Below the pieces are notes generated by a model. That model was not told where the DNA came from. It ran no database searches and was given only the letters and a program-made list of their open reading frames with translations. The position numbers and the translations under genes were made by a program. Of a stretch of DNA of 64,000 nt, positions 2,849 to 53,382 are shown piece by piece (positions within the stretch are counted from its first letter, which is position 1; each line of letters begins with the position of its first letter). Origin of the DNA: Minisyncoccia bacterium (GTDB lineage: Bacteria > Patescibacteriota > Minisyncoccia > Phycocordibacterales > DATDWN01); assembly GCA_049296855.1 (NCBI GenBank), contig JBAQTF010000012.1:1939-65938 (forward strand), read 5' to 3'.

Positions 2849-2941
2849 AAATTATTGATTAGTAAAGATCATTATTAAATATATACAAACAAATTATATA
2901 TCATATATATGATTATGCCTATGTAGTTAAGAACTAAATTA

Positions 2942-3619: not shown

Positions 3620-3622
3620 GAT

Positions 3623-6325: not shown

Positions 6326-6339
6326 AGTTCCTAATAAGA

Positions 6340-9196: not shown

Positions 9197-9197
9197 A

Positions 9198-11211: not shown

Positions 11212-12247
11212 GTGGCCCAGGTTCTTGTCTGGTTAGTTTTTTCCACAGATCTAAAGACATATTAAGTATTCCGACGAAATTATTCTTTTCTATCTCCACC
11301 AAGTTTTCGCTTAGCCATTTTTCTATCGTCTTTATCGTATTTTCTAGACTATATTTTGGTTTCCAATTAAAGTCTTTTTCAAACGCTTTTGATGTAATTT
11401 GTAAATTACGAAGGTCTCCTAAGTCTCCCATCTGACCAATTTTGCATTTCACAACTTTTTGTATAGCCTCGCCGAATTGTTCTTTTGAAAGATTGTGACT
11501 GCCTATATTATATATAAGTTTTGGCCACCTATCTTTAGACATAATAGAAAAGTAACCACTTGTCATGTCTCTCACATCTATAGCTGCTCTATAGGCATTT
11601 AATTCAGATATTCTGATTAGACCTTGAGCTACAGCACAGTATGTAAAGTGATTTGGTAATAATTCGATTCTCATCCTAGGAGCAACACCGCAAACCGTTG
11701 CTGGACGGAGCATAATGATTTTAAATTTTGGATTTTTCTTAACTTTAGTTTTTATGTATTTCTCCATCTCTAATTTATATTTGCAGTAGTTATCCGTTGG
11801 TTCTGGTAGGGGAGCCTTCTCATCTAAAAGTTTCATTTCTTTTTGATTACCATAAAGACTTGATGTCGAGTTGTATATGATGGGGACTTTTAACTTTTCC
11901 GCCAGGTCAATAACTTTTTTTGAAGATTCATAGTTTAAATCTTTTGTGTAGTTTGGGTTATGATTTGCCGCCCAAACAGAAGAAAGCTCAGCAAAGTGAA
12001 AAATAAAATCCGGTTTAAAATCAACAATAGATTTTTTAAGAAGTTCTATGTTTCTAGTGTCTCCAATAACGTAACTTAGTTTTGTTTTAACTTTTTTCTC
12101 TTCCCCGATTTCCTTTAATATTTTTTTGTAATCCTGTTCGTAAATAAGTGAGTCATACAGGCAAACATCAAAGTCTTTTTTTAGCGCTTCTTTTGCTAAT
12201 TGTGAACCAAGGTAACCCAATCCTCCTGTAATAAAGATTTTTTGCAT
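11198..12247 (-). CDS. NAD-dependent epimerase/dehydratase (SDR family)
   Basis: N-terminus IFITGGLGYLGSQLAKE is a Rossmann fold. Extended SDR. Confidence 0.75.
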   Translation of the reverse strand: MQKIFITGGLGYLGSQLAKEALKKDFDVCLYDSLIYEQDYKKILKEIGEEKKVKTKLSYVIGDTRNIELLKKSIVDFKPDFIFHFAELSSVWAANHNPNYTKDLNYESSKKVIDLAEKLKVPIIYNSTSSLYGNQKEMKLLDEKAPLPEPTDNYCKYKLEMEKYIKTKVKKNPKFKIIMLRPATVCGVAPRMRIELLPNHFTYCAVAQGLIRISELNAYRAAIDVRDMTSGYFSIMSKDRWPKLIYNIGSHNLSKEQFGEAIQKVVKCKIGQMGDLGDLRNLQITSKAFEKDFNWKPKYSLENTIKTIEKWLSENLVEIEKNNFVGILNMSLDLWKKLTRQEPGPLETK

Positions 12248-12296
12248 TTCCTTAAGTTATCATAATTTTAACCTTGTGTCCAAAACTTTTTATACG

Positions 12297-12325
12297 TAAA
12301 AAAGCGTGGGACTTGCGTCCCACGC
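12297..12325 (-). terminator. Intrinsic terminator at the 3' end of the GC-rich HD gene
   Basis: On the minus strand: GCGTGGGAC-GCAA-GTCCCACGC followed by TTTTTT. It sits 26 nt downstream of the HD gene stop. Confidence 0.75.
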
Positions 12326-12350
12326 CTAATCTGTTTCCGATTGTTCGCCT

Positions 12351-13049
12351 CTACTCTTCCGGGAAGGGGTAAAGTCCGACGCTTTGCATCTCCTCGACGC
12401 ACCGCGACATGAAGTCGCGATAGTAGTCGAAGTATGGCTTACCCATCTCCTTGGCTTTCGGGAGGCGCAACATGTCCTCCCACTCAAGGTTGAACCAGAT
12501 CGCGTCGTAACACGACTGGATATTTCGGAACGTCGTTTGCGGATGTTTCCTACCGAGGTATTTCGGGATGCATGCCGGAATGTTGGGTCGGTGTTGTCCA
12601 CCCCGAATGAGGTTGAGTGCTCCCATGTTCGACAATCGATCTGCATCCTTGAGGGTCACTGTGACAGGGTTGTCCGCGTCACTGTTGCGCATTGAATGCT
12701 CCATCAATGCTTCACGCATGAACATGAGCTCGTCGTTTCTGAACTCCCCAACAGGCAGTAGCCCAAAGTATCGGTCCAACACTTCGCTTGTTTCACTGCC
12801 GAAGTGACGGTCGGTCGAGTGCATGAGTCCAACGACCCAGGTCATCTCGCCGACTCGCGGGGTTTCCGCGATGAGTGCGCTGGTCTGAGCGACCCGAAGG
12901 TCGTGGTCCCAGCCGTGCCCCATGGTTGTCTTTCCTGACGCGACGATGTCCTCGTGAGTCTTCTTCACCGCATCGTATAGAGCTTTGTATTTCGCTCTCA
13001 TTACCACGAATGTGTTGTACAGATACTGCTTTTTAGTCTCTGTTGCCAT
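12351..13049 (-). CDS. HD-domain protein (predicted metal-dependent phosphohydrolase), encoded in a GC-rich island
   Basis: H...HD...H...D pattern (GHGWDHDLRV, GLMHSTDRH, LKDADRL). Local GC is about 55-60% against about 35% in flanking genes. Purine-rich Shine-Dalgarno sequence AAAGGGGGG upstream. Confidence 0.7.
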   Translation of the reverse strand: MATETKKQYLYNTFVVMRAKYKALYDAVKKTHEDIVASGKTTMGHGWDHDLRVAQTSALIAETPRVGEMTWVVGLMHSTDRHFGSETSEVLDRYFGLLPVGEFRNDELMFMREALMEHSMRNSDADNPVTVTLKDADRLSNMGALNLIRGGQHRPNIPACIPKYLGRKHPQTTFRNIQSCYDAIWFNLEWEDMLRLPKAKEMGKPYFDYYRDFMSRCVEEMQSVGLYPFPEE

Positions 13050-13132
13050 CTCGACCCCCCTTTGAAAAAGGTTTTTACCTAGGAAAAGTTCTGTCTGGAC
13101 TCTATCACATTATTATAAAAAAGTCAAATATA

Positions 13133-14143
13133 TTATTTATACAACACTTTCTGCCACTCAATAGTTTTCTTTACCCCAACTTCTAGAGAAACGAAATCTT
13201 TTTTACCAAATTCGTTTTTAACTTTATCCAAATTTAAACTAACGTCTTCTGGTGCTCCAACCAGAGCTTGTTTTTCAGATTTAGGAATATTCACAGGCAC
13301 TTTTAAGTTTTTTCCAATAAGTTTAGCTAAATCAGCAATTGTCGTTCTGGAAATTCCTCCAACGTTATAGATATTGTCTTTTCCTTCTAAAAGTATTTTC
13401 CACATCATCCAGACTGCATCAGTAATATAACAGTATGTGCGGAGAGCCGAGCCGTCGTCCATCATGTTTATTTTCTTCTCTGTTAGAGCGCGGCCGATAA
13501 AAGAATTTAAAACACGCTTATCGTCTTTTTTTGTTCCGGGACCATAAGCTAAAGAAAGCCGCACAGATTTCGCATCTACTCCACTACTACGGAGGGTGGA
13601 GACAATAGCTTCACCACAGCGTTTGGCTTCTATGTAACATGAGCGTGGATGGTCTGTGTTTGTTGTACCGATTTCTGTCTCTTTGAAAGGTGGTTTCGAG
13701 AGTCCACTGTAGACTTCGCTTGTGCTCATGAATAAAAACTTTCCGCTATTATTTAATTTATCAAATAATTTCAAAGTGACAGCCGTGTTCATCTTTATGG
13801 TTTTTAGAGGGTTTTCCATAAATTTCCCTGGCTGACCATATCCTCCCGCATGAATAATAATGTCGGCTTTTGGTAATTTATTTACAAAATCATCATCGCA
13901 TAAGTCTCCCCCTATTACAGTAGCGTTTGCACCCTTAGATATTTCTTCCCAGTATTTTTCTGGTTTACTTTGGCAAACAGCATAAACTTTTACTCCGGTT
14001 TTTAAGAGTCCAGCTAGAAGATATGTTCCGACGAGTCCAGATGCTCCAGTAATCAAAACATTTTTGTTTTTTAATTGTGAAAAATCCACTCCTTTGATTG
14101 AACTTTTTGCGTCATCTATTATTATTTGGGCTAATTTATCCAT
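13133..14143 (-). CDS. NAD-dependent epimerase/dehydratase (SDR family)
   Basis: VLITGASGLVGTYLLAGLL Rossmann motif. Confidence 0.75.
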   Translation of the reverse strand: MDKLAQIIIDDAKSSIKGVDFSQLKNKNVLITGASGLVGTYLLAGLLKTGVKVYAVCQSKPEKYWEEISKGANATVIGGDLCDDDFVNKLPKADIIIHAGGYGQPGKFMENPLKTIKMNTAVTLKLFDKLNNSGKFLFMSTSEVYSGLSKPPFKETEIGTTNTDHPRSCYIEAKRCGEAIVSTLRSSGVDAKSVRLSLAYGPGTKKDDKRVLNSFIGRALTEKKINMMDDGSALRTYCYITDAVWMMWKILLEGKDNIYNVGGISRTTIADLAKLIGKNLKVPVNIPKSEKQALVGAPEDVSLNLDKVKNEFGKKDFVSLEVGVKKTIEWQKVLYK

Positions 14144-15017
14144 TGATTAGTTTCTTTAGTTTTTTATTTATTGCGTTAGGTGTCATTCCTAAATCCTTGT
14201 CGTGTTCTTCTGCTTTACCATATTTTGTCAGAAATCTTTTAGGCATACCAGCATGAACGATTTCAATAGCTTTTCCGGGAAAAGTATTTATCACGTCGGT
14301 GTCTAGTGCTCCTTCATAATAAGGTTCGCATATCAATATTTTATTTCCAGCGAGATTATTTTTTAGTGTCTTCGAGTCAAAAGGGAACAAGGTCGTGTAG
14401 TAAAGTATCGTTACATCTTCTTTTTCTGTCGCCTCTAGGACGGTTTTCAGCATTGGGCCAACAGCTATGACAGTAGCTTTTTTACCTTTTTTCACAACAT
14501 TCGCTTTACCGAATTTAACTTTTTTACTGTTTTCGTTCCCTCTCTCACTCAAACGAAAATAGGTTGGATTACCATCGGCGTAAGATTGTTTAAAAAGAGT
14601 GTCAAATTCCTCTGCTGTTCCCGGGACGATGATTTCCATTCCTGGGATATTTTTTAATATCGCAATGTCAGACGGACAGTGATGCGTTGCGCCAAGTGCT
14701 GCATAGTCATATGATGCACCGACACTGACAAAGTTTCCTCCGAGTTTCTGAAAAGCAAAATCTACTTTAATTTGCTCTAGTCCTCGTTCAACTATAAATG
14801 GGGTAATAGTGTGAACAACTGGTATTAAATTTGTTTTGGCCAGTCCTGCAGCTAGACTGATTGTTGCTTGTTCTAAGATCCCAATGTTATAAACTCGGGT
14901 GGGGTGTTTAGCGAAAGCATTTCTGAATCCAAATACACCAATATCTCCAAGTATCAAAACGAGTTTTTTGTCTTTATCTAGCACCTTCTCTAAAGTTTTT
15001 ACGAATTGTTTTCTCAT
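14136..15017 (-). CDS. Transketolase, C-terminal (pyrimidine-binding) subunit
   Basis: Transketolase Pyr domain and C-terminal domain. The gene is split from the upstream TPP-binding subunit. Confidence 0.75.
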   Translation of the reverse strand: MRKQFVKTLEKVLDKDKKLVLILGDIGVFGFRNAFAKHPTRVYNIGILEQATISLAAGLAKTNLIPVVHTITPFIVERGLEQIKVDFAFQKLGGNFVSVGASYDYAALGATHHCPSDIAILKNIPGMEIIVPGTAEEFDTLFKQSYADGNPTYFRLSERGNENSKKVKFGKANVVKKGKKATVIAVGPMLKTVLEATEKEDVTILYYTTLFPFDSKTLKNNLAGNKILICEPYYEGALDTDVINTFPGKAIEIVHAGMPKRFLTKYGKAEEHDKDLGMTPNAINKKLKKLING

Positions 15018-15030
15018 TATGTCTTTATAT

Positions 15031-15807
15031 CTAACTACTCAGTTCTTTCACAAGATTCTCGTACTCTTCTTTTGTTGGTGCTTTGTGGTGCCAAGCAGGA
15101 TTACCTTCCATAGTTTTACTTCCATAGCCTTTTATAGTTTCAGCTATTATGGCCAGTGGTTGTCCTATGTGAGGAGTTTTCAGTGCTTGATAAATCTCCT
15201 CTTGATTGTGACCACTAACTTTAATCACAACCCAATCAAATGACTTAAACTTTGATGCGATGTCACTCACAGACACAGCTCGGTCTGTCGAGTGGTTGTG
15301 ATCAACTATACAGATTAAGTTGTCTAATTTGTGATGACTGGCTAAAAGTGCTCCCTCCCAGACTGTACCCTCGTTACTTTCACCGTCGCCTATTATTGCA
15401 TAGACATTCGCTTTGTTTAGAGTGATTCGCATCCCTATAGCCATACCTACAGCAGTAGGGAAGCCATGACCAAGTGATCCAGTAGAAACTTCAACCCCAG
15501 GAACTTTTAGTGAATCTGGATGTCCACCAAGAATCCCTTCGAATTTTCCAAACGATTTCAAATGTTTTTTATGAAAAAATCCTTTGTCTGCGAGAATAGC
15601 ATACAAACCAAGAGAACCATGACCTTTGCTCAAAACGAATCTATCCCTTTTTGGATCGATTGGATTTTTCGGATTAAATTTTAAAACCTTGTCATATAGT
15701 ACGACCAATATATCCAAAATAGAAAAAGCACTAGGAATATGACCTTCTCCAGAGTTGTATGAAGCTTCAACTATTGAAATCTTTAGTTGGTTTATTCTAT
15801 CTTTCAT
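15031..15807 (-). CDS. Transketolase, N-terminal (thiamine-diphosphate-binding) subunit
   Basis: GHIPSAFS...GSLGHGFPTAVGMA...GDGESNEG is the TPP-binding transketolase signature. Confidence 0.8.
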   Translation of the reverse strand: MKDRINQLKISIVEASYNSGEGHIPSAFSILDILVVLYDKVLKFNPKNPIDPKRDRFVLSKGHGSLGLYAILADKGFFHKKHLKSFGKFEGILGGHPDSLKVPGVEVSTGSLGHGFPTAVGMAIGMRITLNKANVYAIIGDGESNEGTVWEGALLASHHKLDNLICIVDHNHSTDRAVSVSDIASKFKSFDWVVIKVSGHNQEEIYQALKTPHIGQPLAIIAETIKGYGSKTMEGNPAWHHKAPTKEEYENLVKELSS

Positions 15808-15812
15808 ATTTT

Positions 15813-17084
15813 CTATGAAATTTTTTCTGTTTTGTAATCCAATATGTTAGATACCTTACCCCAATATGCATCACCTTGTACAGGTTGTCTTGAGTTATTT
15901 TCGTTTGTTATTTCAATACTGATATCTTTTACTGTATCAACGCTACCTCTACCATCACTCAAATGTTTTAACCCAATATTTAGGAAAAGTACTCCGATTT
16001 GGAATAAATATGCTGGTATTTCAACACGAGTCCTGTATTTACCAGGTTCATAGTTCCTGTATCTACCTTCAATATCTCCTTCAGTAGAAAATAAAAGTAA
16101 TTCTCCTTGATAAAAGAAATATAAGAAAAGAAGTTTTTTTTCAAGTGGTTTACGTACTTCATAGTCAATCTCAATGGAGAATTTTTCTCCGATGGGTATT
16201 TGTGCTTGAGGTTTACCATCTTGACTTAAAATAGTTACTTTTTTAATTTGGCCTTCCAAAGTTTCTTTAGCCGGGTATTCTACGATTGAATTTAAAGTTC
16301 TTTCTACGTTAAGGTAGTAGTTCACTACTTCTGAGGTCTCGCCAAATTTAATCAACTCACCGTGTTTAAGCAAGATTGTCTTTGTACACAATCTTTCTAT
16401 AGCATCCAGATTGTGACTAACGAATATAATAGTTCTACCACCAGCCTTAGTAATATCGTCCATTTTCCCTAAACATTTTTTCTGAAATTCTGCGTCACCA
16501 ACAGCTAAAACCTCGTCGACAATTAAAATATCTGGTTCCATATGAGCTGCGACAGAGAAAGCAAGACGGACATACATTCCACTAGAATAATATTTAACTG
16601 GAGTATCAAGGAACTTTCTGACGCCAGAAAACTCGACTATTTCTTCAAACTTACCCGCCACTTCTTTTTTGGTCATTCCAAGAATAGCGCCGTTAAGAAA
16701 AATGTTTTCTCTTCCAGTTAATTCTGGATGGAAACCAGTGCCGACTTCAAGTAGTGAACCAACACGCCCACGGATTTTTATTTCTCCTGTGGTTGGTGGT
16801 GTGATTTGAGATAAAATTTTAAGTAAAGTAGATTTACCTGCACCATTTGGGCCTATAACTCCTATAATTTCTCCTTTTTTAATTGTAAGATTTAAACCTT
16901 TTACCGCCCAAAACTCTTCCTTTTTTTCAAATCCTATAATTGATATAGCTTTAACTTTCAGGAATTTTAATGGGGATTTTAGTATTGTCATTATGACATC
17001 TCGCAAGGCAACATAACCGCCACGCTCCCGTGTGATATCGTATTTTTTTCCTAAGTTTTTTATTTCAATTACATTGCCTTTCAT
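15813..17084 (-). CDS. ABC transporter ATP-binding protein, polysaccharide export (Wzt/TagH-like) with C-terminal extension
   Basis: Walker A motif GPNGAGKSTLLKIL plus ABC signature. There is a roughly 170-aa C-terminal extra domain, as in Wzt. Confidence 0.8.
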   Translation of the reverse strand: MKGNVIEIKNLGKKYDITRERGGYVALRDVIMTILKSPLKFLKVKAISIIGFEKKEEFWAVKGLNLTIKKGEIIGVIGPNGAGKSTLLKILSQITPPTTGEIKIRGRVGSLLEVGTGFHPELTGRENIFLNGAILGMTKKEVAGKFEEIVEFSGVRKFLDTPVKYYSSGMYVRLAFSVAAHMEPDILIVDEVLAVGDAEFQKKCLGKMDDITKAGGRTIIFVSHNLDAIERLCTKTILLKHGELIKFGETSEVVNYYLNVERTLNSIVEYPAKETLEGQIKKVTILSQDGKPQAQIPIGEKFSIEIDYEVRKPLEKKLLFLYFFYQGELLLFSTEGDIEGRYRNYEPGKYRTRVEIPAYLFQIGVLFLNIGLKHLSDGRGSVDTVKDISIEITNENNSRQPVQGDAYWGKVSNILDYKTEKIS

Positions 17085-17101
17085 ATTTTTCTTTAATATT
17101 T

Positions 17102-17998
17102 TTACAGGACATCAGCAAAATATCTCTCAGTCTTTTTAAAAACATATACACCAAAGATCATTAACACAGTTGTACCAGCAAGAGAAATTGATATAAGAAT
17201 CCAATTTATAGGAGCTGTCCCTAGGATGGCCGCTCGGGCACTTTGTATCACCCCCATCATTGGGTTAAGAGCTAAAATCCAAGAATATTTTCCCGCGATA
17301 CTTGCTGGATAAATAACTGGAGTTAAAAACATTAATATTTGAATAAAAAATGGCAAAACATATCGAACATCTCTGTATTTTACATTGATTGCTGATAAGA
17401 ATAATCCACTACCAACAGATGCCATAAAAGTAATTATTAATAGAAGGGGTAGAATCAATAGACCAGATAGGTGAGGAACATATCCATAATAAAACATAAG
17501 TCCGATTAGAATAATGGTAGCAACAGCAAAATCAATTAACTTTGTGATTACCGAGGAAACTGGCAAAATCAGTCTAGGAAAATATACTTTAGTTATTATG
17601 GCCTGGTTACTTGTTAGTGCACTACTAGTATCTCCAAGAGCACTGGAGAAAAATTGCCAAAACAGAAGACCGACATAAACAAAAATAGGATAGGGGACCC
17701 CATCCGATGGCATTTTAGCTAGGCCTCCGAAAAACACAGAAAAAACCACCATTGTTATAAAGGGTTGGAAGATAGCCCAAGCAACACCTATAAATGTTTG
17801 TTTATATCGTACTTTAAGATCTCTCCATGTAAAAAAATATAGGAGCTCTTTATAACGCCAAATTTCTCGGAAATCCTCTAGACTGAAGGTTTTCTTAGGT
17901 TTTATGACAGTTTCTCTAAGGGTATTGGGTTGAGTCATATTTTGAGCAGTATAACAGAAAAACCACTTTTTTTCTATTTTTTCTAAAAGTAGAATCAA
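17102..17998 (-). CDS. ABC-2 type polysaccharide exporter permease (Wzm/TagG-like)
   Basis: Six predicted TM helices and an ABC-2 family pattern. The true start may be the internal MTQPNTL. Confidence 0.75.
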   Translation of the reverse strand: MILLLEKIEKKWFFCYTAQNMTQPNTLRETVIKPKKTFSLEDFREIWRYKELLYFFTWRDLKVRYKQTFIGVAWAIFQPFITMVVFSVFFGGLAKMPSDGVPYPIFVYVGLLFWQFFSSALGDTSSALTSNQAIITKVYFPRLILPVSSVITKLIDFAVATIILIGLMFYYGYVPHLSGLLILPLLLIITFMASVGSGLFLSAINVKYRDVRYVLPFFIQILMFLTPVIYPASIAGKYSWILALNPMMGVIQSARAAILGTAPINWILISISLAGTTVLMIFGVYVFKKTERYFADVL

Positions 17999-18960
17999 TT
18001 CAAATTTTTTGAATGATTATTGATATACCAGTTAATTGTCTTCCTTAATCCTGTTTCAAAGTCTATTTTTGAGACAAATCCAAACTCTTTTTTAGCTTTA
18101 CTTACATCAAGTTTTCGTCTTGGCTGACCATCTGGTTTCGTCTTGTCCCAAACTACTTTTCCATTAAACCCCACAATTTTTGAAATAATTTTTACCAAAT
18201 CTTTTATTTTTATTTCAAAATTACTCCCAATATTTATTGGACGAGAGTCATTATGTTTTATGGTTGCTAGAACGATAGCTCTCGCTGCATCATCTACATA
18301 TAAAAATTCTCGACTGGCTTTTCCTGTGCCCCACACAACGACTTCAGATTTATTTTGTCCCTTTGCTTCGACAAAGCGTTTAATCAGAGCTGGTATTACA
18401 TGTGAATGATCGGGATGAAAATTGTCTCCAGGTCCATAAAGGTTTACACATACTGGATTTATACCATTAAAGCCATATTGTTGTCTGTATGCTTCTAACT
18501 GAACAACGAGCATTTTTTTCGCCAATCCATAAGGAGCGTTGGTTTCTTCTGGATAACCTATCCAAATGTCTTCTTCTCTAAATGGTATTCTAATCGGTAT
18601 TTTGGGGTAAGCGCAAACGGTTCCAACTTGAACAAATTTTTTCACCTTTGCTTTTCGAGCTTCTTCTATCAAATGGATTCCCATCACTGCATTATCATAA
18701 AACAATGTCCCAGGAAATTTTTTATTGAAACCAATACCTCCAACTGTCGCCGCCAAATGGATGATAATATCTTTTTCTTTCACTGCTTTTTCACAATTTT
18801 TTTGAATTCTCAAATCTAGTTCTTTACTTCGCGGACGAAAAATATTTTTTTCTTTTGCTCCATTACGAATCAATTCATTAAAAACAGTTTGACCAAGAAA
18901 GCCGTGACCACCAGTTAGTAGTATTTTTGAGTTTTTTAAATCTATTTCATCTTTTTTCAT
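17995..18960 (-). CDS. fcl: GDP-L-fucose synthase (GDP-4-keto-6-deoxy-D-mannose 3,5-epimerase-4-reductase)
   Basis: [12 protein letters not shown]...HLAATVGGI...GTVCAYPK motifs of Fcl/WcaG. Confidence 0.85.
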
Positions 18961-19990
18961 CTTTTTCTTTTTCTAGATCAGCTTCAGTCATTATTTTTAC
19001 TAATTCTTTAAATTTGACTTTAGGTTTCCATCCAAGATTTTTTCGAGCTTTGCTATAGTCTCCTAGCAATAAATCTACTTCAGCTGGACGAAAATACAAT
19101 GGATCAATCTCCACGATAATTTTTCCTGTTTTTTTATCTATGCCTTTTTCTTTTACACCCTTTCCCTTCCATATAATATCCATGCCCAATATTTTTGCAG
19201 ACTCTTCGACGAACTCTCTTACAGAGTGGGTTTCATTTGTTGCTAATATATAGTCTCCAGGTTTTTTTGCTTGAAGCATAAGCCACATACCATAAACGTA
19301 ATCTTTTGCGTAACCCCAATCTCTTTTTGCATCGAGATTCCCTAAATATAATTTTTCGTCAATACCTAACTTTACCCTAGATAAACCCCTTGTAATTTTT
19401 CTGGTGACAAATGTTTCTCCACGTCTAGGAGATTCATGATTAAACAAGATTCCGTTTACTGCAAACATGTTGTAACTTTCTCTGTAGTTTTTTGTTATCC
19501 AATATGCGTAAACTTTTGCTACTCCATATGGTGAGCGTGGATGGAACATGCTAGTTTCCTTGAGTGGTATCTCTGCCGCTTGACCAAACATTTCACTCGA
19601 AGAAGCTTGGTAGAATCTTGTTTTGTCCAATCCAACTTGTCTCATAGTATCAAGAATTCTAAGAGTCCCAAGTCCCGTAACACCTCCTGTATATTCTGGA
19701 AGATCAAAACTAACTTTAACATGGCTTTGGGCTCCAAGATGATAGATTTCGTCCGGTTTAACTTTTGCAAGTATTCTAGTGAGGCTATTCCCATCAGATA
19801 AGTCTCCGTAATGGAGATGTAGTCGACTTCTCCTCTCGTGCGGGTCTTTATATATGTGGTTTATTCTAGCAGTGTTAAAAGAACTAGATCGACGAATAAT
19901 ACCATGTACCTCGTAACCTTTGTCTAAAAGTAATTCAGTCAGATAAGAGCCATCTTGACCAGTGATACCTGTAATTAAGGCTTTTTTCAT
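18947..19990 (-). CDS. gmd: GDP-mannose 4,6-dehydratase
   Basis: N-terminus [43 protein letters not shown] is highly characteristic of Gmd. Confidence 0.9.
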
Positions 19991-20075
19991 AATGTAGGGA
20001 ATAATAGCAGATTAGCCTATTTTTTTCTAGCCTAATTTTTATTTTTACTAGCGTTTAAAAACTTGATTTGGTATA

Positions 20076-22259
20076 GTGTCTATCATGAATTTAAAAAATA
20101 TTTTTAAGTATGCAGTAATTGGGGGTTTGTTTCTAACTCCGTTCATAGCTTTCATTGTGCCTAGTGCGATGTTTTTTCCTTTCATATCTGGAAAGGGATT
20201 TACTTTTAGGATTTTATCAGAGATTCTATTCGGTTTATTCGTTATCCTGGCTTTTATAGATGTGGAGTATAGACCAAAACTTTCTTGGATCACCAAAGCC
20301 GTTTTGAGTTTTGTTTTTATAATGTTAATTGCTGATCTTCTAGGGGTTAATCCTTACAAGAGTCTTTGGAGTAATTATGAACGAATGGAAGGTTTTGTTT
20401 TACTGATTCACCTAGCTATGTATTATATAGTGCTGTCTTCGGTGTTAAAAACTAAATCACTTTGGAACTATTTTTTCAATACCTCAATTCTGGCAAGTGT
20501 TCTCATGTCTATATACGGAGTCTTCCAACTTTTAGGTAAGGCTACTATTAACCAAGGAGGTGTTCGAGTTGATGCCACTTTTGGTAACGCTTCTTATCTG
20601 GCTATATATCTTGTTTTTCATATTTTTCTCTGTTTGTATTTATTAGTGGATGAATCTTGTAAAAAATGGTTGAAATGGACTTATGGAGTAATTATTTTAT
20701 TAGAGACTGTTATATTGTATTTTACTGCTACCAGAGGTGCTATTCTCGGTCTTATCGGAGGACTACTTCTCACAGGACTACTTCTTGCATGGAAGGAAAG
20801 AGAAAATAAAACATTGCGAAAGGTTGCTTTTGGAGTTGTTGGGGGAGTAGCAGTTTTCATTTTTGGATTTATTCTTCTACGCAACACATCAGTTGTTCAA
20901 AGTAGCCCAGTTTTGTCTAGATTTTCAAATCTTGGGTTTTCGGAGTTTAAAACTCAAGGAAGATATTTTGTTTGGCCAATGGCTATATCGGGTATAAAAG
21001 AGCATCCGATACTTGGTTGGGGACAGGAAAATTTTAACTTCGTTTTTAATAAATACTACAATCCTGGAATTTTTGGTCAGGAAGAGTGGTTTGATCGAAC
21101 ACATGATTTAGTGTTGGATTGGCTTATTGCTGGAGGTATTTTAGGATTTATTTTTTACGTCGGGATTTATGTCGCTCTGTTCTATTATATATGGAGAAGG
21201 AAGAATGTCATGAAAATCTCTGAAAAGGGAATTCTAACTGGAATGGTTTTGGCTTACGTCTTCCATAATCTATTCGTTTTCGATAACCTTATCAGCTATA
21301 TAATATTTTTCTCTATTATTTCTTATGTACATTGGTATAGTACTGCGGATAATAAGACAGTAGGTAATTATTACACAAAAACGTTTTCTGATGAAGTCAC
21401 AAATTATGTTATTTTACCTATCGTGACAGTTCTCACTATTGGTATGGTCTACTTTGTGAATATTCCTGCTTTAAGTGCAAATCAAACTCTTATACAGGCT
21501 ATTTCTCCACAAAAAGAAGGAGTAGAAAAAAACCTGAGCTTATTTAACCAAACTTTCAGTTATGACTCATTTGGTTCAACAGAAGCAATCGAACAGTTAG
21601 TTACAGTGACAAATCAAATTATGTCGTCACAGTTTCCCGCTGAAATAAAACAAAAATTCATTGATTTAACAAAAAAGAAAATTGAAGAAAAAGTAGCTCA
21701 AGTACCAAAAGACGCTCGCTACCTAGTTTTTGCTGGTAGTTTTTTCAATCGTCTTGGACAATATGATGAAGCAATAAAATATTTGGAACGTGCTTTGGTT
21801 GAATCACCAAAGAAGCAAACAATTTATTTTGAGTTGGGTACTTCTTATATGGTTAAAGGCGATTATAAAAAAATGATGGAGTTATTTAAGACAGCATATG
21901 ACTTTAAGCCAGGAGCTCAGGATGCACAGGTGATGTACGCAGTTGGCGCGATTTATGCAAAAGACAACACAGTTTTAACTGAACTCTTGCCAAAAATAAA
22001 TCAAGAAGTAGTGATCTCTGATAATAGATTTTTAAAAGCATATGCTGATACCGGTAGTTATAACTCTGTTATAACCATTCTTTCTCTTAGATTACAAAAA
22101 GATCCGACGAACACTCAAAATAAACTATCTCTCGCCTCTACGTATGCCACAATAGGTCAGAAACAAAAGGCTATAGATATTCTTCGTGAGATGATTGCTG
22201 CCGATCCGAAATTCAAAGACCAAGGCGAACAATATATAAAGGAGGTGGAAAAGAGTTAA
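20076..22259 (+). CDS. Polytopic membrane protein of the O-antigen ligase/polymerase (Wzy_C-like) family with C-terminal TPR repeats
   Basis: About 12 TM helices, with a large loop FVWPMAISGIKEHPILGWGQENF typical of the O-antigen ligase family. C-terminal TPR-like repeats. Confidence 0.6.
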   Translation: MSIMNLKNIFKYAVIGGLFLTPFIAFIVPSAMFFPFISGKGFTFRILSEILFGLFVILAFIDVEYRPKLSWITKAVLSFVFIMLIADLLGVNPYKSLWSNYERMEGFVLLIHLAMYYIVLSSVLKTKSLWNYFFNTSILASVLMSIYGVFQLLGKATINQGGVRVDATFGNASYLAIYLVFHIFLCLYLLVDESCKKWLKWTYGVIILLETVILYFTATRGAILGLIGGLLLTGLLLAWKERENKTLRKVAFGVVGGVAVFIFGFILLRNTSVVQSSPVLSRFSNLGFSEFKTQGRYFVWPMAISGIKEHPILGWGQENFNFVFNKYYNPGIFGQEEWFDRTHDLVLDWLIAGGILGFIFYVGIYVALFYYIWRRKNVMKISEKGILTGMVLAYVFHNLFVFDNLISYIIFFSIISYVHWYSTADNKTVGNYYTKTFSDEVTNYVILPIVTVLTIGMVYFVNIPALSANQTLIQAISPQKEGVEKNLSLFNQTFSYDSFGSTEAIEQLVTVTNQIMSSQFPAEIKQKFIDLTKKKIEEKVAQVPKDARYLVFAGSFFNRLGQYDEAIKYLERALVESPKKQTIYFELGTSYMVKGDYKKMMELFKTAYDFKPGAQDAQVMYAVGAIYAKDNTVLTELLPKINQEVVISDNRFLKAYADTGSYNSVITILSLRLQKDPTNTQNKLSLASTYATIGQKQKAIDILREMIAADPKFKDQGEQYIKEVEKS

Positions 22260-36666: not shown

Positions 36667-37368
36667 ATGAAGTATTCGGAAGTTATTTTGGCAATGCAGA
36701 AAAAGTCGAGTCCAAAAAAAGCCAAAGCTTCTGCATGGTTTTTTAAAACAGGTAAGGGGCAATATGGTGAAGGTGATATTTTTATTGGTCTGACCGTTCC
36801 AGAACAAAGAATTATTGCAAAAAAATTCAGTGATTTACCTGTAAACGAAATAGAGAAACTTTTAAAGTCAAAAATCCACGAGCATAGATTTACAGCTCTG
36901 ATTATTCTCGATTTACTTTATCAAAAAAGCGATAAAAAGATTCGGTCAAAAATTGTCGATTTTTATCTATCTCATACAAAATATATAAATAACTGGGACT
37001 TAGTTGACACTTCCGCTAGTTATATATTAGGAGAACATTTATTCAAGAAAAAAAGAGAAATCTTGTATAAGTTAGCAAGATCAAAAAATTTGTGGGAGAG
37101 AAGAATCGCTATTATTTCCACAGGTTATTTTATATCCAAAAATGATTTCAAAGACACGATAGAGATTTCGAAGTTATTGCTCTCCGACAAACAGGACTTG
37201 ATTCACAAAGCTGTTGGCTGGATGCTTCGTGAAGTGGGGAAGAGAGATGAAAAAGTTCTGGTAAAATTTCTCGACAATTTTATAAAGAAGATGTCACGAA
37301 CTACTTTGCGCTATGCAATAGAAAGATTTCCCAAAAAGAAAAGATTATATTATTTAAATATTAAATAA
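36667..37368 (+). CDS. DNA alkylation repair protein (AlkD-like HEAT-repeat glycosylase family)
   Basis: ASAWFFKTGKGQYGEGDIFIGLTVPEQR...NNWDLVDTSA...LWERRIAI...AVGWMLREVGKRD pattern. Confidence 0.65.
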   Translation: MKYSEVILAMQKKSSPKKAKASAWFFKTGKGQYGEGDIFIGLTVPEQRIIAKKFSDLPVNEIEKLLKSKIHEHRFTALIILDLLYQKSDKKIRSKIVDFYLSHTKYINNWDLVDTSASYILGEHLFKKKREILYKLARSKNLWERRIAIISTGYFISKNDFKDTIEISKLLLSDKQDLIHKAVGWMLREVGKRDEKVLVKFLDNFIKKMSRTTLRYAIERFPKKKRLYYLNIK

Positions 37369-37376
37369 TATAAAAA

Positions 37377-37414
37377 GGGCTGGGTACGTTGTTTGGAAAC
37401 GTACGAACCAGCCC
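37377..37414 (-). terminator. Hairpin terminator at the 3' end of GC-island 2 (minus-strand orientation)
   Basis: GGGCTGGGTACGT...ACGTACGAACCAGCCC stem (7+6 bp), followed on the minus strand by TTTTT. Confidence 0.6.
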
Positions 37415-37434
37415 TTGTGGTGGACGACGCTCGG

Positions 37435-37656
37435 TCATGACGCCTTCCTCTCCTGCGTTTTGTGACGAATGATGAGGCGCGCAACCTCAGTCACCATTTC
37501 TGACTTCTCGGGTTCTTTGATGAACCCCGCGGATTCGACCGCTGCATTCAAGATCTTGTTGTATCTTGGAGCAAAGAGTCGACCCTCAGTGGTCAGGACT
37601 TTTTCACATTCCCTGATCACTTTCAAAGCGATTTCACCAGCGTTCAAAATAATCAC
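37435..37656 (-). CDS. Small hypothetical protein (about 70 aa) in GC-island 2
   Basis: GC-rich ORF with an AGGAGGTG Shine-Dalgarno sequence. The track start at 37656 is a GTG that overlaps that sequence. A TTG at 37647 gives 8-nt spacing. No family recognised. Confidence 0.45.
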   Translation of the reverse strand: MIILNAGEIALKVIRECEKVLTTEGRLFAPRYNKILNAAVESAGFIKEPEKSEMVTEVARLIIRHKTQERKAS

Positions 37657-37720
37657 CTCCTTTTACTCTGGCTAGAGTTTACCATTCTAAATTTTTTTGT
37701 AAAGAGCTTATAAAAAGGAA

Positions 37721-37743
37721 GGCTCGTCGTATTACGACGAGCC
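37721..37743 (-). terminator. Perfect 10-bp hairpin between the two island-2 genes (possible internal terminator/attenuator)
   Basis: GGCTCGTCGT-ATT-ACGACGAGCC, followed on the minus strand by TTCCTTTTTAT. A second small hairpin CCTAGC-GATG-GCTAGG is adjacent. Confidence 0.5.
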
Positions 37744-37759
37744 TTTGACCTAGCGATGG

Positions 37760-37966
37760 CTAGGTAACTTCTTGTTCAGGGCCCTTGCGAGAAGCATTTC
37801 TCCTCGCGTTTGCTGCCCGAGAGAGGGTTGACATCGCCTGGTATACGTTTTCGTTTCTCCCAGCGTATCTCTTTACTACCTCGAGCATGAGGTTCCTATA
37901 GTCTCTGTCTGGGTACCTTTGACGCAAGTCTCGGAGCTCGTTCAACATCCGGTCTGTAATGACCAT
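37760..37966 (-). CDS. Small hypothetical protein (68 aa) in GC-island 2
   Basis: ATG start preceded by AAGGAGGG at 6-nt spacing. GC-rich. No family recognised. Arg-rich C-terminus. Confidence 0.5.
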   Translation of the reverse strand: MVITDRMLNELRDLRQRYPDRDYRNLMLEVVKRYAGRNENVYQAMSTLSRAANARRNASRKGPEQEVT

Positions 37967-37991
37967 AGCGGAGCCCTCCTTCTAGGGAATA

Positions 37992-38021
37992 ATTATACTA
38001 CATTAACAGGGCTTTTGTCAA
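37992..38021 (-). promoter_or_regulatory. Consensus sigma70 promoter TTGACA-N18-TATAAT driving the island-2 genes
   Basis: Minus-strand TTGACA at 38021-38016 and TATAAT at 37997-37992, about 25 nt upstream of the ribosome-binding site. Confidence 0.6.
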
Positions 38022-38056
38022 CTACTTAATCCACAGGCAATTCACATCTTATCCCA

Positions 38057-40687: not shown

Positions 40688-40716
40688 TTGACACGTTAGG
40701 TATTCGTTGTTAGTTT
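40688..40716 (+). promoter_or_regulatory. Promoter TTGACA-N17-TAGTTT for the island-3 gene
   Basis: Read directly from the sequence. It is followed by the Shine-Dalgarno sequence AAGGAGG at 40726-40732. Confidence 0.45.
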
Positions 40717-40739
40717 GTGTTGAGAAAAGGAGGTTGTAC

Positions 40740-41201
40740 ATGGGACATCCGAATCTGTCGGACGGGTTGAATAGATTGATTGATGCCACAGATATACCTG
40801 GAGCTACTTTGGAACTTCGAGAAGTCAAGGTCGGCCAGATCATCAAGGTCGTTTTCGGTGACGAGGGAAAGAAAACTTCTCTCACAATTCGCATCGACAA
40901 GCCAGCTGGTAAAGGGTGGGGTGAGGATTCAGCACTCGGGACCATTCTCGCAGTTGAACTTCAACCAGACAAAGTGGAGTCATTTCGGAAAGTTGATCTT
41001 CCTATTCCACCTATTGGTGAGAAATGTGCGCTTTTCTGTGCTTGTACACGAAACCCTGGGGCTCCATTTGGTATGACGATGTTACACGTTCATCATCTTA
41101 CCAAAGGGAGGCACTTCAGTTGGACAACCCGTCCAAATACCAACAATGAAATCGGGTGGCTTTTTCCAGAAACAGTCTCTGGCTGGTCAGTGCATGGCTA
41201 G
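40740..41201 (+). CDS. Hypothetical protein (153 aa) in GC-island 3
   Basis: ATG at 40740 with a perfect AAGGAGG Shine-Dalgarno sequence at 7-nt spacing. GC about 48-50%. No family recognised (contains CALFCAC...HVHH). Confidence 0.55.
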   Translation: MGHPNLSDGLNRLIDATDIPGATLELREVKVGQIIKVVFGDEGKKTSLTIRIDKPAGKGWGEDSALGTILAVELQPDKVESFRKVDLPIPPIGEKCALFCACTRNPGAPFGMTMLHVHHLTKGRHFSWTTRPNTNNEIGWLFPETVSGWSVHG

Positions 41202-53043: not shown

Positions 53044-53051
53044 AAAAGAGA

Positions 53052-53069
53052 CCACCCGGTTAAGGGTGG
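53052..53069. terminator. Hairpin CCACCC-GGTTAA-GGGTGG shared by the permease operon (+) and the island-5 gene (-)
   Basis: A-run upstream and T-rich downstream on the plus strand. T-run on the minus strand. It overlaps the last codons of the island-5 ORF. Confidence 0.6.
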
Positions 53070-53335
53070 CCTTTGTCTGATGGTTTTTTAAACCACTTGC
53101 TATTGGTGCGAAGATCTTCCACGACCGCCGAGTCCATTCCGAGCAGTTCGTAGGCGGTTCGTGCTTCTGCGTCCCCGATCTCTTTTTTTGTCCAACAGTA
53201 GTCGATTGCTCCTAGAACACAAGCTTGAGCCGATCTGAGCCGACCTTCTTCAAGGAAGATGTCTACACAGAGTTTACCTTCCTCGTTGAGGTATACCTCG
53301 GCCAGCTGTTTAATGGTCGCTTTATCTGCATTCAT
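53060..53335 (-). CDS. Hypothetical protein (91 aa) in GC-island 5
   Basis: ATG preceded by GGAGGTG. GC about 50%. No family recognised (LCVDIFLEEGRLRSAQACVLGAIDYCW). Confidence 0.5.
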   Translation of the reverse strand: MNADKATIKQLAEVYLNEEGKLCVDIFLEEGRLRSAQACVLGAIDYCWTKKEIGDAEARTAYELLGMDSAVVEDLRTNSKWFKKPSDKGHP

Positions 53336-53353
53336 AAACCCACCTCCATTAGT

Positions 53354-53382
53354 GTTATATCTTATATTAACATGATTGTCAA
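53354..53382 (-). promoter_or_regulatory. Near-consensus promoter TTGACA-N17-TATAAC for the island-5 gene
   Basis: Minus-strand TTGACA at 53382-53377 and TATAAC at 53359-53354, about 20 nt upstream of the ribosome-binding site. Confidence 0.55.

What the first reader, a model, noticed from the sequence alone, without database searches (positions are those of the whole stretch)
37369..38021. GC-island 2: two tiny genes driven by a consensus TTGACA-N18-TATAAT promoter with internal and terminal hairpins
This is a self-contained minus-strand cassette between alkD-like (+) and yqeY (-). It reads, in order, a textbook sigma70 promoter, AAGGAGGG, a 68-aa ORF with an Arg-rich tail, a perfect 10-bp hairpin followed by a T tract, AGGAGGTG, a roughly 70-aa ORF, and a 13-bp-stem terminator.

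The two-small-gene layout with an internal attenuator-like hairpin resembles toxin-antitoxin or phage regulatory modules. Neither protein matches a family I recognise.
Basis: seen in the sequence. Interest (0 to 1): 0.7.

Follow-up and report, generated by a model that had tools for sequence, protein, structure and literature searches.

The report
Two orphan mini-genes downstream of yqeY
Two real but uncharacterised ~70-residue protein genes, each with its own promoter and terminator and a codon composition foreign to the host, sit in a chromosomal slot after yqeY that related ultra-small (Patescibacteria) bacteria also fill with strongly promoted, very dissimilar mini-genes; they do not look like a toxin-antitoxin pair.

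Summary
The window's only 12/12 TTGACA-N18-TATAAT promoter is followed by a strong SD, a 68-aa ORF1, a -20.7 kcal/mol terminator, a second extended -10 promoter, a strong SD, a 70-aa ORF2 and a -22.7 kcal/mol terminator.

ORF1 is a real protein gene. Its one homolog among 1.84 billion representatives is 56% identical, with pN 0.29 against a saturated pS of 0.82. That homolog lies on a 669-bp contig with the same layout, but its upstream gene is not yqeY.

ORF2 resembles small proteins found at the same position in relatives (0 of 1000 shuffles reach its profile score).

Both ORFs have GC3 of 0.58, against a host mean of 0.29.

The slot is a clade feature. In 824 kb around yqeY in 80 Paceibacteria-like genomes, 10 of 21 perfect promoters lie within 1 kb downstream of yqeY. 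They drive GC-rich 38-130-aa ORFs that mostly share no detectable similarity.

There are no Pfam, PHROG, PADLOC, NCBIfam, phage or plasmid matches and no flanking repeats. Two separate transcription units and no toxin or antitoxin family argue against a TA module.

Best reading: moron-like autonomous small-protein cassettes in a conserved, fast-turnover slot. ORF1 is a confidently predicted basic three-helix protein that may bind nucleic acid. Biochemical function is unknown.

The parts
38027..38035 (-). TGTGGATTA, an 8/9 match to the DnaA-box consensus TGTGGATAA, 6 nt upstream of the -35 hexamer (CTGTGGAT is 7 nt upstream). Its function is unresolved.
   Evidence: TGTGGAT followed 5-7 nt later by TTGAC occurs 7 times in 880 kb of the window plus relatives' loci, where about 0.5 is expected. 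Six of these are independent. All seven precede a small-gene cassette, six of them downstream of yqeY. Caveat: in some lineages the same bases encode the YqeY C-terminal Val-Asp.
37992..38021 (-). Promoter P1: TTGACA-N18-TATAAT (12/12), with aatgtagTATAAT conserved in the homologous contig L094.
37974..37981 (-). Shine-Dalgarno AAGGAGGG, 7 nt before the ORF1 ATG.
   Evidence: SDs are conserved in the relatives' cassettes.
37760..37966 (-). ORF1: 68 aa, pI 10.2, predicted three-helix protein with the conserved helix-3 motif L-x-RAANAR.
37709..37745 (-). Terminator T1: 12-bp perfect stem, 3-nt loop, then CCUUUUUAUA. The 2-nt offset of the U tract may allow some read-through.
   Evidence: dG -20.7 kcal/mol. 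An equivalent 14-bp terminator follows the homolog in L094.
37676..37703 (-). Promoter P2: TTTACA-16-TAAACT with an upstream TG (extended -10).
   Evidence: L094 has TTTACA ... TGtTATAAT at the same place.
37654..37661 (-). Shine-Dalgarno AGGAGGTG for ORF2. AAAGGAGGTGA is identical in L094.
37435..37647 (-). ORF2: 70 aa from TTG, pI 9.3, predicted three-helix protein. It is a distant member of a small-protein family found in the same slot in relatives L005, L010 and L008, and possibly L011.
   Evidence: 11.0 bits, 0 of 1000 shuffles. AF2 pLDDT is 68.
37366..37416 (-). Terminator T2: 16 bp with a bulge, followed by a U tract that abuts the convergent alkD-like stop codon.
   Evidence: dG -22.7 kcal/mol.

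Best explanation
The island holds two tandem, autonomous transcription units, each built as promoter, strong SD, ~70-codon gene and intrinsic terminator. Both encode real small helical proteins of previously undescribed families. In architecture they are moron-like cassettes: they carry their own promoter and terminator and differ in composition from the neighbouring genes. They occupy a conserved chromosomal slot immediately downstream of yqeY. Many Paceibacteria-like Patescibacteria fill this slot with one to three strongly promoted, GC-rich mini-genes, and its contents turn over or diverge far faster than the flanking housekeeping genes.

Shown:
- The sequence signals are present.
- ORF1 is under protein-level purifying selection.
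- The ORF1-then-ORF2 layout is conserved on a second contig.
- Perfect promoters are enriched in the slot across the clade.
- GC3 is atypical.
- No TA, defence, phage or plasmid families match.

Inferred:
- P1 gives high, probably constitutive, ORF1 expression.
- ORF2 is expressed from its own weaker promoter plus any read-through of T1.
- ORF1 is a basic three-helix protein with an Arg/Asn-rich third helix. It probably acts by binding nucleic acid, as a small regulator or nucleoid- or RNA-associated protein (my confidence in this step alone is about 0.3).
- ORF2 is its functional partner or an independent small effector.
- The high GC3 reflects either import from a GC-richer gene pool or selection or biased conversion that maintains it.
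For: Signals:
- P1 is the only 12/12 promoter in the window, and the SDs and terminators are as described.

ORF1 is coding:
- It has a single homolog, P0007, at 56% identity and E 8e-11, among 1.84 billion representatives.
- Over 57 aligned codons, pN is 0.29 and pS is 0.82. Of 32 identical residues, 18 use different codons. Differences by codon position are 23/14/34.

The pair is conserved:
- L094 carries CTGTGGAT-N7-TTGACA-N18-TATAAT, an SD, the ORF1 homolog and a terminator.
- This is followed by an extended -10, AAAGGAGGTGA and an ORF that begins VDIATKIASRV, compared with ORF2's MNAGEIALKVI.
- The gene upstream in L094 is not yqeY.

ORF2 family:
- Smith-Waterman z is 5.2 against L010a and 3.7 against L005a. 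These rank first and third of about 220 comparisons.
- ORF2 scores 11.0 bits against the L005a+L010a profile, and 0 of 1000 shuffles reach that score. The control proteins ORF1 and the 91-aa orphan are at chance.

The slot:
- 10 of 21 perfect promoters in 824 kb lie within 1 kb downstream of yqeY on its strand. That region is about 5% of the search space, so the binomial P is about 1e-8 (my calculation).
- 25 of 79 loci have an SD-ORF of 30-130 aa starting at +20 to +220 with a promoter of at least 9/12. GC exceeds the locus GC in 23 of 25. Mean GC3 is 0.54 against 0.39 for yqeY.
- The closest relative, L004 (YqeY 79% identical), has a 12/12 promoter with an unrelated 63-aa ORF.

Composition:
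- GC3 is 0.58 in both ORFs against 0.29 +/- 0.066 for host ORFs.
- The L094 homolog keeps GC3 of 0.57 in 0.37-0.41 GC flanks.

Other cassettes:
- At least two other GC3-outlier 'promoter, orphan ORF, terminator' cassettes occur in the same window.

Fold:
- ORF1 has pLDDT 87.5 from a single sequence, with helices at 5-17, 23-34 and 41-60.

The moron definition (own promoter and terminator, GC content different from the surroundings) is taken from PMC3594210.
Against: - No transcription or protein data exist, so promoter strength and termination are inferred from consensus alone.
- The ORF2 model has low confidence (pLDDT 68) and its matches are unspecific.
- ORF2's family link rests on 15-25% identity. 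jackhmmer did not find it.
- Only one other contig shows the pair. It is 669 bp long and ends 10 codons into the second ORF.
- Morons are defined in phage genomes, and nothing phage-like is here.
- A conserved slot with a conserved promoter fits in-situ rapid divergence as well as it fits cassette import. I could not separate the two.
- The deposited genome's gene calls leave this 689-bp stretch empty.
Confidence: 0.55

Rival explanations
1. A type II toxin-antitoxin or abortive-infection pair. ORF1 would be a DNA-binding antitoxin that autoregulates P1, and ORF2 a small helical toxin.
For: - There are two adjacent small genes on one strand, and the first is basic with a possibly HTH-like fold.
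- The pair recurs as a pair on L094 in another genomic context.
- Composition is atypical.
- T1's U tract is offset by 2 nt, so some read-through into ORF2 is conceivable.
Against: - A -20.7 kcal/mol terminator, a 112-nt gap and a separate conserved promoter lie between the genes. Classical type II modules are tight or overlapping operons (established knowledge).
- There are no hits to any Pfam, NCBIfam, PADLOC or PHROG toxin, antitoxin or defence model, even at E up to 10.
- ORF2-like genes in relatives sit beside three other kinds of small gene, in either order: L005a before an 'ICPVDD' protein, L010a before an 'AAGERDDD' protein, and L011b after a 38-aa ORF.
- A 70-aa three-helix protein resembles no known toxin fold.
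Confidence: 0.1
2. In-situ fast-evolving resident host genes. The slot holds ancient orthologous small genes, a core clade-specific function, that have diverged beyond recognition. High GC3 would be maintained by selection on highly expressed short mRNAs or by GC-biased gene conversion. No horizontal transfer is involved.
For: - Slot position and promoter are conserved across genomes whose YqeY is 54-79% identical.
- ORF2 retains weak similarity to the slot proteins of L005, L010 and L008.
- GC3 is elevated in 23 of 25 lineages, whatever the host GC.
- Both ORF1 homologs keep GC3 near 0.58 although synonymous sites are saturated.
- There are no mobile-element hallmarks.
Against: - The ORF1 pair sits next to a different upstream gene in L094.
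- The order and number of small genes differ between close relatives, and several unrelated-looking families occupy the slot.
- About half of the relatives have no such cassette at all.
- L005a and L010a are easily recognisable as homologs of each other (E 1e-36 in the local search). ORF2 is much further from L005a (about 15% identity) although L005 is a closer relative by YqeY (77%). This fits simple orthologous divergence poorly.
- Ribosomal protein genes in the window do not show raised GC3, for example L9 at 0.31. High expression alone therefore does not explain it.
Confidence: 0.25
3. The island encodes structured non-coding RNAs. In an AT-rich genome, GC-rich islands are often RNA genes, and the ORFs would then be incidental.
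For: - GC is 0.44-0.48 in a 0.36 genome.
- Each unit has a strong promoter and terminator.
- Fold z-scores are -4.6 and -3.6.
- The deposited annotation calls no gene here.
Against: - No Rfam family reaches the gathering threshold anywhere in the island, or in the equivalent regions of 12 relatives.
- The excess folding energy, about 23 and 17 kcal/mol, matches the terminator hairpins alone.
- ORF1 shows the signature of a coding sequence: third-position changes dominate and pN is well below pS.
- Consensus SDs at correct spacing precede both ORFs and nearly all slot ORFs in relatives.
Confidence: 0.04
4. A remnant of a prophage or other integrated mobile element: a Cro/CI-like regulatory switch left behind after decay.
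For: - Composition is atypical.
- Each unit has its own promoter and terminator, as morons in prophages do (PMC3594210).
- ORF1's best fold match is a phage Mu transposase DNA-binding subdomain.
Against: - There are no protein relatives in 50,697 phage records, 72,556 plasmids or IMG/VR contigs, and no PHROG hit.
- The BFVD fold search gave no match with E <= 0.001.
- The flanks are housekeeping genes (tsaD, tRNAs, dgkA-like, alkD-like, yqeY, rmuC, rplU).
- No direct or inverted repeats bound the island.
- The same slot is occupied in many relatives.
Confidence: 0.06

Closest known systems
Phage 'morons' (for example the HK97 gene 15 element): independent transcription units inserted between conserved genes
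   Same: Each is a single small gene flanked by its own sigma-70-type promoter and factor-independent terminator. [quoted passage not shown] Each is present between two genes that are adjacent or differently separated in relatives. The cargo is usually of unknown function (definition from PMC3594210; features here).
   Different: The cassettes are not in a phage or prophage. The flanks are core housekeeping genes and no phage homologs exist. The insertion site is a recurrent, promoter-bearing slot conserved across a bacterial clade, which is not part of the moron concept.
Type II toxin-antitoxin modules
   Same: Two adjacent small genes on one strand, the first basic and possibly DNA-binding. 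The two are found together in a second genomic context.
   Different: They are separate transcription units with a strong terminator and a 112-nt spacer. There is no match to any toxin or antitoxin family. Partners in relatives are variable.
Homeodomain-like / Myb-like tri-helical HTH DNA-binding domains (Mu transposase I-beta, GT-1, IS629 OrfA)
   Different: There is no sequence similarity (3-16% identity) and no Pfam or PDB sequence hit. The scores are in the range that any three-helix bundle gives. The loop between helices 2 and 3 is 6 residues, longer than a classical HTH turn.
B. subtilis sda: a small checkpoint protein whose promoter is directly bound by DnaA
   Same: A very small helical protein is expressed from a promoter with a DnaA-box-like sequence just upstream. 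Here it is TGTGGATTA, and perfect TGTGGATAA in three relatives' cassettes. DnaA consensus and sda regulation are taken from PMC8203912.
   Different: There is one box rather than a cluster. There is no sequence similarity to Sda. DnaA boxes are not enriched in the window. In some lineages the motif lies within the yqeY coding end, so it may be a relic rather than a site. DnaA binding was not tested.

Membership tests
Type II toxin-antitoxin module | The two genes form one operon: co-transcribed and closely spaced or overlapping. | tested here: not met
   A 112-nt gap contains a -20.7 kcal/mol terminator and a second promoter, which is conserved in L094. Sequence-level inference only; no RNA data.
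Type II toxin-antitoxin module | At least one partner belongs to a recognised toxin or antitoxin family or fold. | tested here: not met
Type II toxin-antitoxin module | The toxin inhibits growth, and the antitoxin neutralises it by direct binding. | not testable with these tools
   This needs expression assays. Co-folding of the two chains was not available.
Phage moron | An autonomous unit with its own promoter and its own terminator around the gene. | tested here: met
   P1 with T1 and P2 with T2.
Phage moron | Nucleotide composition differs from the flanking genes. | tested here: met
   GC3 is 0.58 against 0.29 +/- 0.066, more than 4 sd.
Phage moron | The unit resides in a phage or prophage genome. 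| tested here: not met
   The flanks are housekeeping genes. No phage, viral or plasmid relatives were found. It is therefore moron-like, not a moron.
Tri-helical HTH (homeodomain-like / Myb-like) DNA-binding proteins | A three-helix fold with helix 3 as the recognition helix, superposable on known members. | tested here: inconclusive
Tri-helical HTH (homeodomain-like / Myb-like) DNA-binding proteins | Sequence-specific DNA binding. | not testable with these tools
   This needs EMSA or ChIP.
Structured non-coding RNA gene | A match to a known RNA family, or conserved structure beyond the terminators. | tested here: not met
   Rfam was negative. The fold-energy excess is accounted for by the terminators. 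The substitution pattern is that of a coding sequence.
DnaA-regulated promoter | A DnaA box (TTATCCACA / TGTGGATAA) at the promoter. | tested here: inconclusive
   An 8/9 match lies 6 nt upstream of the -35. It recurs in 6 independent cassettes, where about 0.5 is expected. It is a single box, boxes are not enriched in the window, and it may be a relic of the yqeY 3' end.
Integron gene cassette | A promoterless ORF followed by an attC site, with an integrase nearby. | tested here: not met
   Each ORF has its own promoter. The hairpins are short perfect GC stems followed by U tracts, that is, terminators. No integrase is present in the neighbourhood.

The most novel reading that the evidence does not exclude
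Paceibacteria-like Patescibacteria keep a promoter-anchored 'mini-gene slot' after yqeY, and probably others such as recR/dnaB. Strongly expressed, GC-rich small-protein cassettes would be swapped in and out of it, making it a chromosomal counterpart of phage morons and a reservoir of fast-evolving small effectors. Some of these promoters, including P1 here, may be coupled to replication status through a DnaA box. The cassettes would then act as sda-like small checkpoint or stress proteins in organisms with minimal regulatory repertoires.
Probability: 0.2. Interest if true: 0.75.

Novelty: new variant of a known kind. Interest (0 to 1): 0.5.

Why it matters
Patescibacteria (CPR) have tiny genomes, and much of their lineage-specific biology is thought to lie in unannotated small genes. 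Three points follow.

- Two genuine small-protein genes lie in a 689-bp stretch that the deposited genome's gene calls leave empty.
- They belong to a recurrent locus type: a consensus promoter fixed after a housekeeping gene, driving very diverse, compositionally foreign mini-genes. I found no description of this in the literature searches I ran.
- The slot is a concrete, easily searchable handle (yqeY stop followed by TTGACA-N17/18-TATAAT). It could be used to study how reduced genomes gain, express and discard new small proteins, and whether GC3 is kept high by selection, biased gene conversion or continual import.

If ORF1-type proteins turn out to be DNA-binding regulators, or the promoters DnaA-controlled, this would add a regulatory layer to organisms with very few known transcription factors.

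Tried and rejected
- Direct homology for ORF1 and ORF2. Pfam, PHROG, PADLOC and NCBIfam scans found nothing.
- The k-mer-seeded search of 5.8 billion proteins returned only the query proteins themselves.
- An alignment-seeded search for the ORF2 family returned only the five seed sequences. All clusters are singletons.
- jackhmmer over all ORFs of about 180 fetched loci found only the L094 homolog of ORF1.
- ORF1-profile links to slot proteins in L063, L074 and L059 reached P of about 1/300 each. With about 90 tests this is not significant, so I did not claim them.
- Searches of viral contigs, phage records and plasmid records were all negative.
- The metagenome scan with the ORF1 alignment was negative.
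- The metagenome scan with the promoter pattern CTGTGGAT-N6/7-TTGACA-N17/18-TATAAT gave 105 hits. Most were chance matches in unrelated organisms. Only L096/L199 (the same cassette as L010b) and L103 were real cassettes, and they belong to another protein family.
- The non-coding RNA reading was rejected.
- The mobile-element reading found no target-site duplications or terminal inverted repeats.
- The idea that the promoter-upstream region is a decayed copy of the yqeY 3' end was not significant for the window (P 0.4) and only marginal for L094 and L010b (P 0.04-0.09).
- The DnaA-box count in the window is at chance, 19 against 21 expected.
- Fold searches gave only generic three-helix matches.
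- The AFDB50 library was unavailable.
- The ORF2-family alignment was too divergent for a viral-contig scan.
- Two literature searches for CPR small-protein or orphan-gene slots found nothing relevant.
Full report
**Source of the window.** The window is 100% identical to GenBank contig JBAQUU010000002.1 of assembly GCA_049297715.1 and to two Logan contigs. YqeY-based relatives are Patescibacteria MAGs labelled Paceibacterota, Zambryskibacteria, Parcubacteria and similar. The best relative has 79% YqeY identity. The window's mean GC is 0.36.

**The observation.** On the minus strand the sequence reads, in order:
- the yqeY stop codon;
- TGTGGATTA;
- TTGACA-N18-TATAAT (38021-37992);
- AAGGAGGG, then 7 nt, then ATG;
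- ORF1, 68 aa (37966-37760);
- a 7-bp hairpin over the stop codon;
- a perfect 12-bp stem with a 3-nt loop followed by CCUUUUU (37745-37709);
- TTTACA-16-TAAACT preceded by TG (37703-37676);
- AGGAGGTG, with AGGAGG 8 nt before TTG;
- ORF2, 70 aa (37647-37435);
- a 16-bp bulged stem followed by a U tract (37416-37366), which abuts the convergent alkD-like gene.

The promoter is the only 12/12 match in 64 kb. The two terminators have dG of -20.7 and -22.7 kcal/mol, and no shuffle of 200 folds as well. The internal hairpin is a full terminator of 12 bp, not 10. ORF2 has its own promoter. The supported ORF2 start is the TTG, because the GTG of the 73-aa reading lies inside the SD.

**Coding or RNA?** Rfam finds only four tRNAs in the window and nothing in the island. 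It also finds nothing in the corresponding regions of 12 relatives. The transcripts fold better than shuffles (z -4.6 and -3.6), but the excess matches the terminator hairpins.

An exhaustive phmmer search of 1.84 billion representatives found one ORF1 homolog, P0007. It is 64 aa, 56% identical, E 8e-11. Codon comparison over 57 aligned codons gives pN 0.29 against pS 0.82, which is saturated. Of 32 identical residues, 18 use different codons. Differences by codon position are 23/14/34. ORF1 is therefore a protein gene under purifying selection.

**The pair is conserved as a pair.** P0007 lies on a 669-bp ENA contig, L094. Its layout matches the window's:
- CTGTGGAT-N7-TTGACA-N18-TATAAT, with aatgtagTATAAT identical to the window;
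- an SD and the ORF1 homolog;
- a 14-bp terminator;
- TTTACA ... TGtTATAAT;
- AAAGGAGGTGA, identical over 11 nt to the window's SD2 region;
- an ORF starting VDIATKIASRV, where the contig ends. ORF2 starts MNAGEIALKVI.

The ORF upstream in L094 ends ...SIISWQEVN and is not YqeY. Both transcription units, including the intervening terminator and second promoter, are thus conserved in a second organism. Either the genomic context there is different, or the contig is too short to show yqeY further away.

**ORF2 relatives.** Direct searches returned only the query itself. In relatives L005, L010, L008 and L011, however, a ~68-73-aa ORF with a strong SD lies in the same position after yqeY. These ORFs share a three-helix pattern with a central (A/G)G(Y/F)-x-(D/E)P motif.

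| Test | Result |
|---|---|
| Smith-Waterman z, ORF2 vs L010a | 5.2 (rank 1 of about 220) |
| Smith-Waterman z, ORF2 vs L005a | 3.7 (rank 3 of about 220) |
| ORF2 vs L005a+L010a profile | 11.0 bits, 0 of 1000 shuffles reach it |
| L008b vs the same profile | 8 of 1000 shuffles |
| L011b vs the same profile | 48 of 1000 shuffles |
| Control, ORF1 | 574 of 1000 shuffles |
| Control, 91-aa orphan | 810 of 1000 shuffles |

I accept a distant relationship for ORF2, L005a and L010a. L008b is probable and L011b possible. The family is extremely sparse: an alignment-seeded search of 5.8 billion proteins returned only the five seeds, and all are singleton clusters.

**The slot.** I examined 824 kb around yqeY in the 80 relatives plus the window's own copy of the region (locus L002). 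In this sequence, 10 of 21 perfect (12/12) sigma-70 promoters lie within 1 kb downstream of yqeY on its strand. That region is about 5% of the search space, so the binomial P is about 1e-8 by my calculation.

Under strict criteria, 25 of 79 loci carry a cassette there. The criteria were an SD of at least 5 nt, an ORF of 30-130 aa starting at +20 to +220, and a promoter of at least 9/12. Its GC exceeds the locus GC in 23 of 25 cases, by a mean of +9 points. Mean GC3 is 0.54 against 0.39 for yqeY.

Cassettes come singly or in tandems of two or three, each with its own terminator. Their proteins are mostly mutually unrecognisable. Besides the ORF2-like group there are at least two other loose families:
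- basic proteins with PLGPP and a C-terminal (K/R)xAAGE(R)DDD motif;
- proteins ending NEHICPVDD.

The closest relative, L004, has a 12/12 promoter driving an unrelated 63-aa ORF with GC 0.60. Many relatives have no cassette at all.

**Composition.** ORF1 and ORF2 both have GC3 of 0.58. Fifty-seven host ORFs of at least 110 aa average 0.29 with sd 0.066. The excess is therefore not an amino-acid effect. Ribosomal protein genes in the window are not elevated; L9 is 0.31. The L094 homolog keeps GC3 of 0.57 in flanks of 0.37-0.41 GC, although synonymous sites between the two homologs are saturated. Either each was recently imported from a GC-richer pool, or high GC3 is actively maintained.

At least two more GC3-outlier cassettes of the form 'promoter, orphan ORF, terminator' exist in this window. 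They are at 12302-13127 (232 aa, GC3 0.68) and 53049-53382 (91 aa, TTGACA-17-TATAAC).

**Structure and function.** AF2 predicts ORF1 with pLDDT 87.5 from a single sequence. It has three helices at residues 5-17, 23-34 and 41-60. Helix 3 carries the fully conserved L-x-RAANAR motif, and the protein's pI is 10.2.

ORF2 is predicted as three helices with pLDDT 68, and its matches are unspecific.

**Why it is not a TA module or a phage module.**
- No toxin, antitoxin, defence or phage family matches.
- No relatives exist in phage, plasmid or viral collections.
- No bounding repeats are present.
- The two genes are separate transcription units.
- ORF2-like genes have different neighbours in different genomes.

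**Closest concept.** Phage morons are genes with their own promoter and terminator and a deviant GC content, inserted between conserved genes (PMC3594210). Two of the three defining features are met. The third, residence in a phage genome, is not. I therefore call the cassettes moron-like, in a bacterial chromosomal slot.

**An unresolved detail.** TGTGGAT(A/T) lies 5-7 nt upstream of the -35 hexamer in six independent cassettes: the window, L094, L010b, L025, L028 and L030. Only about 0.5 such occurrences are expected. TGTGGATAA is the reverse complement of the DnaA-box consensus TTATCCACA (PMC8203912). It matches perfectly in three cassettes and 8/9 here.

Three caveats apply. There is only one box. 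Boxes are not enriched in the window. In some lineages these bases are simply the Val-Asp codons at the end of yqeY, so the motif could be a relic carried along with the promoter. A direct test of that idea was not significant for the window.

**Verdict.** The TA and phage-regulator interpretation is not supported. The feature consists of two genuine orphan small-protein genes, organised as autonomous cassettes. They sit in a clade-conserved, promoter-anchored, fast-turnover slot. Their biochemical function remains inferred only.

Noticed in passing
window 12302-13127 (-): Another GC-rich autonomous cassette. It has TTGACT-17-TAGAGT with TG, a 232-aa orphan ORF (12351-13049) with GC3 of 0.68 against a host mean of 0.29, no Pfam hit, and an 11-bp terminator at 12327-12302. 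It lies inside a sugar-nucleotide/glycosyltransferase gene cluster.
   Followed up: partly
window 53049-53382 (-): A third cassette of the same design: TTGACA-17-TATAAC, GGAGGTG, a 91-aa orphan ORF (53060-53335, GC3 0.49) and a 9-bp terminator. It has no Pfam hit and no relative in any fetched locus.
   Followed up: partly
window 40707-41201 (+); L084 3001-3264: The spacer between recR and dnaB holds a GC-richer orphan gene (153-164 aa, GC3 0.43). Its only match is a sub-threshold MlaD hit. In the Zambryskibacteria relative the same spacer holds a different 87-aa orphan. This may be a second hypervariable slot.
   Followed up: partly
L010 4171-4386, L012, L019, L030, L034, L035, L046, L054, L073, L083, L103 (region just downstream of yqeY): A loose family of basic, probably disordered 60-75-aa proteins. 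They share a PLGPP motif and a conserved acidic C-terminus, (K/R)xAAGE(R)DDD. All are expressed from near-consensus promoters in the yqeY slot and none hits Pfam.
   Followed up: partly
L005 6874-7083, L009 (yqeY end +59 to +265), L047, L080: A second slot family whose members end in ...(A)NEHI(C/V)P(V/I)D(D).
   Followed up: no
L005, L006, L009, L011, L012: gene convergent on the slot (for example L011 6980-9715): In several relatives the next gene after the slot is a ~911-958-aa P-loop ATPase with GQTGTGKTT and DEFQN motifs, resembling HerA/FtsK or a T4SS coupling protein. It lies between the slot and the alkD-like gene. It is absent from this position in the window.
   Followed up: no
window about 19900-20100: Cumulative GC skew reaches its minimum here. 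Gene orientation also switches, from all-minus (351-19990) to mostly-plus (from 20076). This is a candidate replication origin or terminus. DnaA boxes are not enriched anywhere in the window.
   Followed up: no
window 37369-38056 / L002 10457-11144: The gene list attached to the NCBI assembly shows no gene in this 689-bp stretch. The two proteins are known only from Logan gene calls, so they appear to be unannotated in the deposited genome.
   Followed up: yes
window 37345-37373: A perfect 13-nt AT-only palindrome (TTATATTATTTAA / TTAAATAATATAA) lies at the junction between the alkD-like stop codon and terminator T2.
   Followed up: no
L005 3561-3696 (-): A SAM riboswitch (RF00162, 63.8 bits) lies about 2.3 kb upstream of yqeY in a relative.
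   Followed up: no
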